DNA of 64,000 nt from Eledone cirrhosa. Lineage: Eukaryota. Each line of letters begins with the position of its first letter. Position 1 is the first letter of the stretch. Made by a program: the position numbers and the translations under genes. A model generated the notes under the pieces. It worked only from the letters and a program-made list of their open reading frames with translations. It was not told where the DNA came from and ran no database searches. Location: NCBI GenBank assembly GCA_964016885.1, contig OZ024756.1, forward strand, positions 10,292,001-10,356,000, given 5' to 3'. Below are positions 9,780 to 45,655 of this stretch, in pieces.

Positions 9780-11132
9780 AAGTAATCTTTACAAGAGAAT
9801 GATTTATCACAGACATCACAGTGATATAGTTCCTCTCCTGTAGATGTTAGTGTGTAGTGAAGTCACAACATTTAGAGAAGCATGTACCAGACATCATAGT
9901 GATATGGTTCCTATCCTGTATATATTAGTGTATAGTGAAGTCATAACATTTAAAAAATGATTTACCACAGATATCACAGTGATATGGTTCCTTTCCTGTA
10001 TATGTTAGTGTCTAATGAAGCCACAACATTTAGAGAAAGATTTACCAAATATATCAAAGGCTTCCCAGCTGTATGTATATGTTTGTGTGTAGTTAATGTA
10101 ACATTCAAAGAGAATGATTTCCCTGAGAAGTCACAATGATATGTATTTGTATTCTCATTAATTCACAAATTTGAGGGAATGATATATCACTGATGTCAAT
10201 GCGTTATGATTTCTCTTCTGTATGTATAAGTTTGTGAGTAGTTAGGCTACTTTTCCCAGAGAATGATATACCACAGATATCACAGTGATATGGCTTGTCT
10301 CCTGTATGTATACGTTTGTGTCTAGTTAAGTGATTAATTTGAGAGAATGATTTACCACAGATATCACAGTGGTATGGCTTGTCTCCTGTATGGGTATGTA
10401 CATGCTTAATTAAGTGACTTCTTCGAGAGAATGATTTGCCACAGATATCAGTGATATGGCTTGTCTCCTGTATGTATATGTTTGTGTGTAGTTAAGTTAC
10501 TACTTAGAGAGAATGATTTGCCACAGATATCACAGTGATATGGCTTGTCTCCTGTATGTGTATGTTTATGTGTAGTTAGGCTACTACTTACAGAGAATGA
10601 TTTACCACAGATATAACAGTGATATGGCTTGTCTCCTGTATGTGTAGTTAGGTGACTACTTTCAGAGAATGATTTACCACAGATATCACAGTGGTATGGC
10701 TTGTCTCTTGTATGTATACGTTTATGCTTAATTAAGGAACTACTTTCAGAGAATGATTTACCACAGATATCACAGTGATATGGCTTGTCTCCTGTAAGTG
10801 TATGTTTATGTGTAGTTAGGTTACAACTTACAGAGAATGATTTACCACAGATATCACAGTGATATGGCTTGTCTCCTGTATGTGTACGTTATGTGTAGTT
10901 AGGTGACTACTTTCAGAGAATGATTTACCACAGATATCACAGTGGTATGGCTTGTCTCCTGTATACATACGTTTATGCTTAATTAAGGAACTACTTTCAG
11001 AGAATGATTTACCACTGACTATTTCCAGAGAATGATTTGCCACAGATGTTACAGTGATATGGCTTGTCTCCTGTATGTATACATTTGTGTGTAGTTAAGT
11101 TACTACTTAGAGAGAATGATTTACCACAGATA
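9780..11132 (-). pseudogene. Out-of-frame, degenerate C2H2 finger repeats downstream of the unit A ORF (~16 units)
   Basis: 84-bp finger repeats continue with indels at ~11135, ~11020, ~10888, ~10642 and 10449. Confidence 0.85.
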
Positions 11133-12329
11133 TCACTGATATGGCTTGTCTCCTGTATGTGTACGTTTATGTGTAGTTAGTTTACTACTTGCAGAGAATG
11201 ATTTACCACAGATATCACAGTGGTATGGCTTGTCTCCTGTATGTATACGTTTATGCTGAATTAAGGAACTACTTTCAGAGAATGATTTACCACAGATATC
11301 ACAGTGATATGGCTTGTCTCCTGTATGGGTATGTTTGTGGCTAGTTAAGTGACTACTTCGAGAGAATGATTTGCCACAGATATCACAGTGATATGGCTTG
11401 TCTCCTGTATGTATACGTTTGTGTGTAGTTAAGTTACTACTTGCAGAGAATGATTTACCACAGATATCACAGTGGTATGGCTTGTCTCCTGTATGTATAC
11501 GTTTATGCTTAATTAAGTTACTACTTACAGAGAATGATTTACTACAGATATCACAGTGATATGGCTTGTCTCCTGTATGGGTACGTTTGTGGCTAGTTAA
11601 GTGACTACTTACAGAGAATGATTTACCACAGACATCACAGTGATATGGCTTGTCTCCTGTATGTGTACGGTTATGTGTAGTTAGGTGACTACTTTCAGAA
11701 AAGGATTTACCACAGATATCACAGTGGTATGGCTTGTCTCCTGCATGTATACGTTTATGCTTAATTAAGGAACTATTTTCAGAGAATGATTTACCACAGA
11801 TATCACAGTGATATGGCTTGTCTCCTGTATGGGTACGTTTGTGGCTAGTTAAGTAACTACTTCGAGAGAATGATTTGCCACAGATATCACAGTGATATGG
11901 CTTGTCTCCTGTATGGGTACGTTTGTGAGAAGGTAAGTTACTACTTCGAGAGAATGATTTACCACAGATATCGCACTGATATGGTTTCTCCCCTGTATGG
12001 GTATGTATGTGAGTATTTAAGTGACTACTTCGAGAGAATGATTTACTACAGATATCGCAGTGATATGGTTTCTCTCCTGTCTGTATATGTTTGTGATTAA
12101 TTAAGTTACTACTATCAGAGAATGATTTACCACAGATATCACAGTGATATGGCTTCTCCCCTGTATGTATATGTTTGTGAGTAGTTAAGGTACTACTTTT
12201 ATTGAATGATTTACCACAGATATCACAGTGATATGGCTTCTCTTCTCTAACCTTCATCAGCTCACCAGGAATACTAAACGATTTCGATTGTGTTTCGCAT
12301 TTAATCTTCTTTGTCAATTTATTTTCCAT
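11133..12329 (-). CDS. Tandem C2H2 zinc-finger protein, 398 aa, 13 fingers (unit A)
   Basis: 32-aa leader, then 13 [10 protein letters not shown]...H...H-TGDKP repeats; finger 2 has a His>Gln change; ends at a private 2-bp deletion; no KRAB/SCAN/SET domain. Confidence 0.9.
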
Positions 12330-12679
12330 AATTATTTCTTCTTCAACAGAATATACAAATGTTTTACTCGTAATATTTTTAATATTATATTTCTCATAAA
12401 AATATTTCTTCTTCTATATTTCCCTCAACTGTGATTTCAGTTAATATCTGAAGATAATACAAACTTCTTTTTCATCCAAGTTTAGTTAAAATACAAAACC
12501 ATCTCATAGTTAAGAAAATAAACTCAATTTTGAGGAAATATTTCACAGTAATACGAGAGATTTATATAAACAGTGTTATATAAGTTCTGTTAAAAAAGTT
12601 GTTGTCTTAAAATGATGATAAATAAAAGTGATGTATCCAAGATTGAAAATAATAATTTATACCAATGTCATCTGATATT

Positions 12680-43644: not shown

Positions 43645-44635
43645 AGTAATCTTTACAAGAGAATGATTTATCACAGACATCACAGTGATATAGTTCCTCT
43701 CCTGTAGATGTTAGTGTGTAGTGAAGTCACAACATTTAGAGAAGCATTTACCACAGACATCATAGTGATATGGTTCCTATCCTGTATATATTAGTGTATA
43801 GTGAAGTCATAACATTTAAAAAATGATTTACCACAGATATCACAGTGATATGGTTCCTTTCCTGTATATGTTAGTGTCTAGTGAAGCCACAACATTTAGA
43901 GAAAGATTTACCAAATATATCAAAGGCTTCCCAGCTGTATGTATATGTTTGTGTGTAGTTAATGTAACATTCAAAGAGAATGATTTCCCTGAGAAGTCAC
44001 AATGATATGTATTTGTATTCTCATTAATTCACAAATTTGAGGGAATGATATATCACTGATGTCAATGCGTTATGATTTCTCTTCTGTATGTATAAGTTTG
44101 TGAGTAGTTAGGCTACTTTTCCCAGAGAATGATATACCACAGATATCACAGTGATATGGCTTGTCTCCTGTATGTATACGTTTGTGTCTAGTTAAGTGAT
44201 TAATTTGACAGAATGATTTACCACAGATATCACAGTGGTATGGCTTGTCTCCTGTATGGGTATGTACATGCTTAATTAAGTGACTTCTTCGAGAGAATGA
44301 TTTACCACAGATATCAGTGATATGGCTTGTCTCCTGTATGTATACGTTTGTGTGTAGTTAAGTTACTACTTAGAGAGAATGATTTTCCACCAATATCACA
44401 GTGATATGGCTTGTCTCCTGTATGTGTATGTTTATGTGTAGTTAGGTTACAACTTACAGAGAATGATTTACCACAGATATCACAGTGATATGGCTTGTCT
44501 CCTGTATGTGTACGGTTATGTGTAGTTAGGTGACTACTTTCAGAGAATGATTTACCACAGATATCACAGTGGTATGGCTTGTCTCCTGTATGTATACGTT
44601 TATGCTTAATTAAGGAACTGCTTACAGAGAATGAT
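43645..44635 (-). pseudogene. Out-of-frame finger repeats downstream of the unit C ORF
   Basis: About 4 near-intact finger units up to the shared deletion at ~44315, then decayed units. Confidence 0.8.
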
Positions 44636-45655
44636 TTACTTGTCTCCTGTATGGGTATGTTTGTGGCTAGTTAAGTAACTACTTCGAGAGAATGATTTGC
44701 CACAGATATCACAGCGACATGGCTTGTCTCCTGTATGTATACGTTTGTGTGTAGTTAAGTTACTACTTGCAGAGAATGATTTACCACAGATATCACAGTG
44801 GTATGGCTTGTCTCCTGTATGTATACGTTTATGCTTAATTAAGGAACTACTTACAGAGAATGATTTACCACAGATATCACAGTGATATGGCTTGTCTCCT
44901 GTATGGGTACGTTTGTGGCTAGTTAAGTGACCACTTACAGAGAATGATTTACCACAGATATCACAGTGATATGGCTTGTCTCCTGTATGTGTACGGTTAT
45001 GTGAAGTTAGGTGACTACTTTCAGAGAATGATTTACCACAGATATCACAGTGGTATGGCTTGTCTCCTGTATGTATACGTTTATGCTTAATTAAGGAACT
45101 ATTTTCAGAGAATGATTTACCACAGATATCACAGTGATATGGCTTGTCTCCTGTATGGGTACGTTTGTGGCTAGTTAAGTAACTACTTCGAGAGAATGAT
45201 TTGCCACAGATATCACAGTGATATGGCTTGTCTCCTGTATGTATACGTTTGTGGGTAGTTAAGTAACTACTTCGAGAGAATGATTTGCCACAGATATCGC
45301 ACTGATATGGTTTCTTCCCTGTATGGGTATGTATGTGAGTATTTAAGTGACTACTTCGAGAGAATGATTTACTACAGATATTGCAGTGATATGGTTTCTC
45401 TCCTGTCTGTATATGTTTGTGATTAATTAAGTTACTACTATCAGAGAATGATTTACCACAGATATCACAGTGATATGGCTTCTCCCCTGTATGTATATGT
45501 TTGTGAGTAGTTAAGGTACTACTTTTATTGAATGATTTACCACAGATATCACAGTGATATGGCTTCGCTTCTCTAACCTTCATCATTTCACCAGGAATAC
45601 TAAACGATTTCGATTGTGTTTCGCATTTAATCTTCTTTGTCAATTTATTTTCCAT
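44636..45655 (-). CDS. Tandem C2H2 zinc-finger protein, 339 aa, 11 fingers (unit C)
   Basis: Same leader; truncated by a private 23-bp deletion (GATTTAC|TTGTCTCC) that creates TAA. Confidence 0.88.

What the first reader, a model, noticed from the sequence alone, without database searches (positions are those of the whole stretch)
9780..45655. Young whole-gene tandem amplification in which the zinc-finger array is far more variable than its flanks (PRDM9-like coding minisatellite)
Seen: three ~17-kb units differ by eye only at scattered sites in the flanks, yet they encode 13, 17 and 11 in-frame fingers (about 22, 17 and 15 units before the shared stop). The 84-bp frameworks are nearly identical at DNA level, while helix residues vary and are reordered (RSSY, ESSS, ESSH, VSSH, RINH, RSSQ, VSCN, RGSH, ASSN, ASSK, VSGH). 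Known: homogenised framework with variable contact residues is the PRDM9 pattern, and octopus genomes have very large clustered C2H2 expansions lacking KRAB. Inference: a two-level diversity generator (gene copy number times finger shuffling) that produces new DNA specificities much faster than point mutation.
Basis: partly seen in the sequence, partly recalled or inferred. Interest (0 to 1): 0.75.

Follow-up and report, generated by a model that had tools for sequence, protein, structure and literature searches.

The report
Tandem zinc-finger genes with reshuffled fingers
Four head-to-tail copies of a zinc-finger-only gene, likely from an octopus, carry the same kinds of DNA-reading fingers in different numbers and orders, likely through the same repeat-to-repeat exchange that also scrambles the non-coding satellite beside them; the pattern resembles PRDM9, but the gene is not PRDM9 and at most one of the four copies is fully intact.

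Summary
They belong to a four-copy tandem array; the fourth copy lies 113 kb upstream, with a 105-kb satellite in its intron. All three internal joins share one novel junction, which argues against mis-assembled alleles.

Corrections:
- The arrays differ by about 2.3% plus about two whole-finger indels per pair. That is roughly ten times the distal flanks (0.2-0.4%) but about equal to the adjacent 5' sequence (2-3%).
- The youngest pair has the same finger order (1 base differs).
- The non-coding 61-bp satellite reshuffles as much.
- U1 and U3 are shortened by frameshifts; U0 has a leader stop.

Helix positions -1/3/6 show excess amino-acid change (omega about 1.5-4), family-wide (at least 189 acceptor copies). 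No KRAB or PR/SET was found; the genome's PRDM9 candidate lies on another contig. It works like young mouse KRAB-ZFP clusters. The scan noted the same pattern several times elsewhere in this genome. Targets and expression of these copies are untested.

The parts
1..6717 (.). Right end of cassette A (gene U0). A begins at window-equivalent -116128; its ZNF exon lies at about -113047..-110862 and its intron holds a 105-kb array of the 61-bp satellite (-108823..-2259)
6718..23648 (.). Cassette B (gene U1)
   Evidence: junction 'GTATCCC|GG|AATTG' found exactly 3 times in the genome
23649..40389 (.). Cassette C (gene U2)
40390..57690 (.). Cassette D (gene U3); right end of the four-copy array
11133..12329 (-). 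U1 ORF, 398 aa: 34-aa leader + 13 finger units (12 intact); 2-bp deletion after finger 13 gives the stop
27601..29133 (-). U2 ORF, 510 aa: 34-aa leader + 17 intact C2H2 fingers; the only fully intact copy of the four
44636..45655 (-). U3 ORF, 339 aa: leader + 11 finger units (10 intact); 23-bp deletion after finger 11 gives the stop
9737..11137 (-). U1 out-of-frame finger units and shared degenerate tail (5 of the 7 units 14-20 are broken, against 1 of the 12 before the frameshift)
26891..27605 (-). U2 shared degenerate finger tail after the stop (0-0.6% diverged among copies)
43601..44639 (-). U3 out-of-frame units and degenerate tail
29500..29516 (-). Splice acceptor of the coding exon (copies at 12680 and 46006); 366 nt of 5' UTR follow, with in-frame stops before the ATG
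   Evidence: 189 exact copies of the 25-mer in the genome
37051..37097 (-). Upstream non-coding exon end with donor GAAGGAG|GTAAGT (last exon base 37057; copies at 3381, 20312, 54668); exon start at 37097 is inferred from a TTTAG
   Evidence: loose ends of 3 contigs of run X2 at 29501 map here
14240..15723 (+). Intronic 61-bp satellite, about 24 copies, resembling the 3' end of the RTE-type LINE
31059..32481 (+). Intronic 61-bp satellite, about 23 copies, monomer order nearly equal to U1's
47631..49041 (+). Intronic 61-bp satellite, about 23 copies, monomer order largely different from U1 and U2
16496..18121 (+). Intronic LINE remnant with RVT_1 (copy at 33254-34879). U1 and U2 share a 1,047-bp internal deletion (16687/8, 33445/6) that U0 and U3 lack; RTE clade is my recall, not a call result

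Best explanation
The window holds three of four head-to-tail copies of a roughly 17-kb cassette, each with one KRAB-less, zinc-finger-only gene, whose 84-bp finger repeats differ in number and order, likely through unequal crossing-over and gene conversion within and between copies, with selection likely favouring amino-acid change at the predicted DNA-contacting positions. Steps: (1) Shown: one novel junction with 2-bp microhomology joins all copies; inferred: a microhomology-mediated tandem duplication, then amplification by unequal exchange. (2) Shown: copies are mosaics (U2 has U0's array and leader but U1's intron); inferred: continued exchange homogenises distal flanks while the coding exon, intron end and satellite remain a more diverged island. 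(3) Shown: whole-finger indels and fingers that fit two parents; inferred: slippage or unequal exchange in the coding minisatellite, as in the non-coding satellite. (4) Shown statistically, with caveats: excess non-synonymous change at -1/3/6. (5) Shown: stops in the last exon shorten U1 and U3 and break U0; inferred: birth-and-death turnover. (6) Inferred from literature only: the proteins would bind fast-evolving repeats or transposons, as proposed for metazoan tandem ZNFs.
For: Junction present exactly 3 times genome-wide and absent from the C289 paralogue. Informative-site mosaic with a breakpoint near 29700. Arrays align at 2.3% mismatch with 3-4 gaps per pair, two of them about 84 bp or larger. 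Several fingers fit two parents with 0-1 mismatch where the best single parent needs 2-4, e.g. U2 f8, U1 f9, U1 f10, U3 f4. Satellite control reshuffled between U1/U2, U3, C289 and the giant array. Omega at -1/3/6 is 1.45-2.46 against 0.38-0.54 in the framework over 19 genes (2.6-3.6 when nucleotides are counted), and about 4 in U1-U3 + C289. No KRAB or SET in 63 upstream ORFs or the leader; none of 14 PR-domain matches on C17. Spliced contigs in a related organism define a non-coding upstream exon. Same processes are described for mouse KZFP clusters (PMC5363842, PMC12575710).
Against: The most conservative selection test is not significant (omega 1.45, p 0.086); the 15 other genes alone give 1.19 (p 0.53) at the tighter threshold. 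Within contact codons of U1-U3, N:S is 19:4 against 9.5:2.5 sites, which is neutral-like. P-values are anti-conservative under conversion (PMC5519329, section 25). In the local copies the framework omega (0.64-0.87) is not distinguishable from 1, so U1 and U3 may be decaying. No read depth or long reads from this assembly's species were laid, no expression of these copies is shown, and no target is known.
Confidence: 0.75

Rival explanations
1. Neutral repeat turnover in mostly dying copies: the array shuffles like any tandem repeat, contact diversity is old and inherited from the family, and the copies are pseudogenising.
For: U0 has a leader stop; U1 and U3 are frameshifted and lack a His in finger 2. 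The non-coding satellite shuffles equally. Local framework omega is not below 1. Many sampled paralogues are broken.
Against: U1 damage is concentrated after the stop (5 of 7 units against 1 of 12). Rare contact codons are 16 N to 0 S at the 3-nt threshold. U2 is intact over 17 fingers; acceptor and donor are conserved.
Confidence: 0.3
2. Selection keeps the paralogues apart: the diverged island around the coding exon marks selection against gene conversion, so U1, U2 and U3 are maintained as distinct binders.
For: Divergence is 2-3% at the exon and 0.2-0.4% elsewhere. 18 of 25 copy-specific variants are absent from up to 23 outside paralogues (only 1-4 cover the last positions), so they were not imported from those. 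The peak-of-divergence signature is described in PMC3924837 (passages).
Against: The island extends about 5 kb into non-coding intron and satellite and ends abruptly at the 3' tail. The same paper says large indels disrupt pairing, a neutral cause. U0 carries U2's array although it is dead.
Confidence: 0.25
3. Assembly artefact: allelic haplotypes placed in tandem.
For: Flanks are 99.6-99.8% identical; no reads from this species were laid; the region abuts a 105-kb satellite.
Against: Three distinct array types in four copies exceed two alleles. A novel junction recurs three times. No N gaps in 264 kb.
Confidence: 0.07
4. A PRDM9 or PRDM9-derived gene family that positions recombination.
For: Share of amino-acid diversity at -1/3/6 (0.35-0.41) equals that of the genome's PRDM9 candidate (0.39).
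Against: No KRAB, SSXRD or PR/SET found in the cassette. Finger framework is 70% identical to the PRDM9 candidate, no closer than the 30 other arrays (65-76%).
Confidence: 0.02

Closest known systems
Young mouse KRAB-ZFP clusters (Kauzlaric 2017, PMC5363842; Chr4 cluster, PMC12575710; passages read)
   Same: Segmental duplication of whole genes with their transposon cargo; finger arrays with duplicated, deleted and reordered fingerprints among close paralogues; arrays truncated by point mutations; decay of some copies.
   Different: No KRAB exon found here: the upstream exon is non-coding and the protein has only a 34-aa leader. Cargo is a LINE remnant and a LINE-like satellite, not ERVs. Four copies, not dozens.
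Coleoid/octopod C2H2 ZNF expansion (PMC12513265, part 1 and passages; PMC9068888, passages)
   Same: Large clustered C2H2 expansion in a likely octopod genome (the C22 PR exon's closest hit by identity is Octopus bimaculoides, 76%).
   Different: The passages read treat gene counts, phylogeny and expression, not finger-level shuffling or selection. 'Concerted' occurs 0 times in PMC12513265.
PRDM9 ZF minisatellite (Baker 2017, PMC5519329; sections 10 part 1 and 25 read)
   Same: 84-bp repeats homogenised at DNA level; diversity concentrated at contact residues; turnover by conversion and duplication.
   Different: No KRAB, SSXRD or PR/SET found; weaker homogenisation (0.85-0.88 against 0.915 for this genome's candidate); share 0.35-0.44 against 0.687 human and 0.910 mouse, although some complete PRDM9s in that table score 0.33-0.46; multi-copy family.
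Zebrafish FiNZ-ZNFs (Wells 2023, PMC10547256; passages)
   Same: KRAB-less, lineage-specific ZNF family with a short conserved N-terminal peptide and positive selection at base-contacting residues.
   Different: FiNZ is a separate coding exon. Here the leader sits in the finger exon and has no true relative among 1.84 billion representatives. Transposon repression is untested here.

Membership tests
PRDM9 | PR/SET domain | tested here: not met
   0 of 14 PF21549 matches on C17; none in 63 upstream minus-strand ORFs of 42 aa or more; no tblastn hit of lizard PRDM9 N-terminus in 264 kb
PRDM9 | KRAB and SSXRD domains | tested here: not met
   No Pfam hit over cut-off in upstream ORFs or leader; the upstream exon found is non-coding. 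The genome-wide SSXRD search rang nowhere and is uninformative; exons further 5' are not excluded
PRDM9 | Homogenised ZF minisatellite with top-ranked share of diversity at contact residues | tested here: inconclusive
   U1 0.41, U2 0.40, U3 0.35 at -1/3/6. 30 other arrays: median 0.24, max 0.37; PRDM9 candidate 0.39 (0.50 with +2). High rank, but the sample is small and chosen by Pfam score, and the sections read do not list the paper's positions
PRDM9 | Descent of fingers from the PRDM9 array | tested here: not met
   Framework 70% identical to the C22 candidate, like the 30 other arrays at 65-76%
PRDM9 | Meiotic H3K4me3/H3K36me3 and hotspot positioning | not testable with these tools
   needs germline ChIP and recombination maps
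Tandem C2H2 ZNF genes (clustered expansions) | Five or more adjacent 28-aa C2H2 fingers with TGEKP-type linkers in one exon | tested here: met
Tandem C2H2 ZNF genes (clustered expansions) | Clustered, recently duplicated paralogues | tested here: met
   four-copy array; 189 exact acceptor copies, the first 100 listed on 17 contigs
Tandem C2H2 ZNF genes (clustered expansions) | Excess amino-acid change at -1/3/6 with conserved framework | tested here: met
   omega 1.45-3.6 against about 0.4-0.55; the weakest settings are not significant
Tandem C2H2 ZNF genes (clustered expansions) | Sequence-specific binding, often to transposons, and repression | not testable with these tools
   no binding data or recognition-code tool
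KRAB-ZFP | KRAB exon upstream of the finger exon | tested here: not met

The most novel reading that the evidence does not exclude
An octopod family of at least about 190 effector-less zinc-finger genes evolves as coding minisatellites at close to the tempo of the genome's own PRDM9 array. Contact residues are under positive selection, and selection shields the finger exon from gene conversion between tandem copies, so each copy is a distinct, fast-renewed reader of repeats. Its short conserved leader (I-K-x-E, a SUMO-like motif, recalled) would be an unrecognised silencing module.
Probability: 0.25. Interest if true: 0.6.

Novelty: new member of a known kind. Interest (0 to 1): 0.33.

Why it matters
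It gives a base-level example of how the octopod zinc-finger expansion renews its repertoire: gene duplication, finger shuffling and in-exon truncation. The genome supplies two internal controls, a non-coding satellite in the same cassette and a PRDM9 candidate. It makes the open question of whether cephalopod C2H2 genes race against transposons (stated as open in PMC12513265) testable on three near-isogenic paralogues. The mechanism itself is already described for vertebrate clusters, and the scan has seen it repeatedly in this genome. One search for cephalopod + zinc finger + positive selection + DNA-contacting found 0 papers; that is the only basis for saying finger-level selection is not in print for cephalopods.

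Tried and rejected
- Family derived from PRDM9's finger exon: suggested by similar helix words, rejected because the framework is no closer than in other arrays.
- The 1,047-bp LINE deletion as the duplication junction: rejected; it is an intron allele of U1 and U2, and the true junction is at 6718/23649/40390.
- C289 as the allelic haplotig: rejected; apart from a short shared left flank, only dispersed repeats match outside the cassette, and neighbouring ZNF genes differ.
- Homologues of the leader: none by word search at near lengths. The profile search gave one hit, a moth CLIP-protease-like protein judged spurious. The Atlas returned only generic C2H2 clusters; residues 1-120 gave generic ZNFs, almost all vertebrate among the 120 listed.
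- Expression: the best runs hold at most 0.28 of the words and show fixed differences, so they are probably a related species. Contig depth cannot rank exons; X20 laid nothing.
- SSXRD search rang nowhere. A degenerate leader pattern matched nothing. The SUMO-motif literature search gave nothing on point. The PRDM9-in-molluscs search listed only unrelated papers.
- and the self-comparison timed out.
- No structure or complex prediction was run; it would not change the reading.
- Supplements of PMC5519329 (table 3B, DNA identity of PRDM9 fingers) were not opened and may bear on the comparison.
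Full report
OBSERVATION. Self-BLAST shows three long near-identical units. Each has a minus-strand ORF with a 34-aa leader and 84-bp C2H2 repeats: 398, 510 and 339 aa, with 13, 17 and 11 finger units, of which 12, 17 and 10 match C2H2. U1 ends at a 2-bp deletion and U3 at a 23-bp deletion; only U2 reaches the shared 82-bp unit that makes the common stop.

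ANATOMY. The window is G000:C17:10292001-10356000 in a 3.0-Gb genome. The taxon is likely octopod: a PR-domain exon elsewhere in the genome has its highest-identity hit, 76%, in Octopus bimaculoides among 7 hits. I read 140 kb upstream and 60 kb downstream. A fourth copy, U0, lies at about -113 kb. The repeat is a cassette bounded at -116128, 6718, 23649, 40390 and 57690. The outer ends share only 'GG', and the hybrid junction occurs exactly 3 times in the genome. U0 is separated from U1 by about 1,750 monomers (105 kb) of a 61-bp satellite, of which U1-U3 carry 23-24.

GENE MODEL. Three contigs of run X2 leave the window at 29501, at a predicted acceptor. Their loose letters match at 37059 and at the equivalent site in each cassette: 4 matches against 0.24 expected. 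A consensus donor follows there. The gene is therefore a non-coding upstream exon, a 7.6-kb intron holding the LINE remnant and the satellite (114 kb in U0), and one coding exon with stops before the ATG. X2's library type is not on record, and it holds 0.27 of the words. This shows splicing of the family in a probably related organism, not expression of these copies. No KRAB or SET was found in 63 upstream ORFs or the leader; ORFs under 42 aa, satellite ORFs and simple-repeat ORFs were left out. The leader has no true homologue. Its I-K-x-E is kept in 13 of 14 aligned leaders; the SUMO reading is recalled and untested.

ARRAY VERSUS FLANK. Against U2, distal segments differ by 0.19-0.41%. The 670 bp 5' of the array differ by 2.1-3.4% among U1, U2 and U3 once 5 artefact columns are removed (one search prints 2.9-3.4%). 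The intron end differs by 1.9-2.4%, except U1/U2 at 0.46%. Aligned arrays mismatch at 2.3%, with 3-4 gaps per pair, two of them finger-scale. U0 and U2 differ by 1 base over 17 fingers and by 0 of 701 in the tail. U2 is a mosaic: U0-type left of about 29700, U1-type right of it. Array difference thus tracks the age of the local haplotype, and the distal flanks understate that age. 18 of 25 copy-specific variants are absent from up to 23 outside paralogues, which favours an older split with later homogenisation of flanks. The non-coding satellite behaves alike: U1 and U2 differ by 3 monomer changes and 1 gain, while U3 and C289 are largely reordered. The functional consequence could still be large: only 1-3 of 9-15 three-finger fingerprint windows are shared between coding arrays.

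SELECTION. Over 19 ATG-led genes (216-227 distinct fingers; broken paralogues were left out), changes on short spanning-tree edges give omega 1.45-2.46 at -1/3/6 and 0.38-0.54 in the framework, or 2.6-3.6 when nucleotides are counted. U1-U3 plus C289 give about 4, with framework 0.64-0.87. Against this: the strictest setting has p 0.086, the other 15 genes alone give 1.19 at the tight threshold, and contact codons of U1-U3 have a neutral-like internal N:S of 19:4. Conversion makes all p-values optimistic (PMC5519329, section 25). In U1, 5 of 7 units after the stop are broken against 1 of 12 before it, which suggests the shortened protein stayed under constraint.

HOW PRDM9-LIKE. Within-array identity is 0.865, 0.878 and 0.846, and the share of amino-acid diversity at -1/3/6 is 0.41, 0.40 and 0.35. 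Thirty other arrays, picked by Pfam score from 20,192 candidates, have medians 0.72 and 0.24 and a maximum share of 0.37; 4 of 30 reach 0.85 identity, 3 of them members of this family. Among 119 mostly vertebrate ZNF proteins the median share is 0.23, the 95th percentile 0.38, and a lizard PRDM9 0.63. Human and mouse PRDM9 score 0.687 and 0.910 (PMC5519329 Table 1). The genome's PRDM9 candidate is on C22: a weak KRAB-like match, two PR/SET exons and a 39-unit array with 36 intact fingers, identity 0.915, share 0.39, or 0.50 with +2. The arrays therefore work like a somewhat looser PRDM9 minisatellite but fail membership, and they are not derived from that array (framework 70%, like other arrays).

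NOT SPECIAL TO THIS LOCUS. The 25-nt acceptor occurs 189 times. Of 35 paralogous loci fetched, 23 had 3-19 fingers in their best ORF, all with different finger orders; within-array identity was 0.77-0.87. The other 12 were near-identical one- or two-finger relics. U1, U2 and the C289 copy rank highest of 18 on the share statistic.

MECHANISM. One microhomology-mediated duplication, then unequal exchange, likely made four copies. Continued conversion likely homogenises flanks. Exchange among 84-bp repeats likely adds, removes and fuses fingers, and stops in the last exon shorten or break copies. Selection likely favours contact changes. The diverged island may reflect selection against conversion or blocked pairing at large indels; both are described in PMC3924837 (passages). 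Binding to transposons is an inference from PMC10547256 (passages), where octopus is among four species whose predicted motifs are enriched in TEs.

COMPARISON AND NOVELTY. The same processes are described for mouse KZFP clusters (PMC5363842 and PMC12575710, passages). The cephalopod C2H2 expansion is known (PMC12513265, part 1 and passages; PMC9068888, passages). A cnidarian PRDM9 preprint (10.64898/2026.09.07.749791, passages) confirms the four-domain definition and names -1, +2, +3 and +6 as the contact positions. Earlier notes of this scan report the same pattern at other loci of this genome; they are leads, not support. Verdict: a real, clean, new member of a known kind; interest 0.33.

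Noticed in passing
G000:C17, window-equivalent -108823..-2259 (L014-L024): A 105-kb array of about 1,750 61-bp monomers (96 variants, irregular higher-order order) resembling the LINE 3' end. It lies inside the predicted first intron of gene U0, which also has a leader stop.
   Followed up: partly
G000:C22, about 11,539,700-11,554,100 (L107/L108, L082, L094): PRDM9 candidate: weak KRAB-like match (E 0.005), two PR/SET exons (48% and 64% to lizard PRDM9) and a 39-unit finger array at 91.5% identity. SSXRD not found. Already noted by the scan.
   Followed up: partly
G000:C20 3.5-5.3 Mb, C27 13.6-15.3 Mb, C16, C19 (L059, L062, L070-L078, L080): A one- or two-finger relic of this family sits in 97-100% identical 5-kb stretches repeated about every 80-210 kb on C20 and shared with three other contigs; this suggests a large segmental macrosatellite.
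   Followed up: partly
G000:C14 8.95-9.07 Mb: Thirteen acceptor copies spaced 7-13 kb apart: another tandem array of this family.
   Followed up: no
L053, L055, L057, L058, L065, L067, L079: Seven paralogues share a stop after MENN yet keep open arrays of 10-19 fingers; an alternative start or splice is possible.
   Followed up: no
G000:C1132:436392 and 446880: Two PR-domain exons 10 kb apart on opposite strands with no finger ORF of two or more fingers in the 43 kb read.
   Followed up: partly
window 59048-59638 +: A 196-aa frame whose C-terminal part looks like a Penelope-type GIY-YIG endonuclease (recalled); no Pfam hit.
   Followed up: partly
L114, L126 leaders: More distant finger subfamilies begin with related M-E-x-E-L-C-E...I-K leaders, so the leader may be older than this subfamily.
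   Followed up: no
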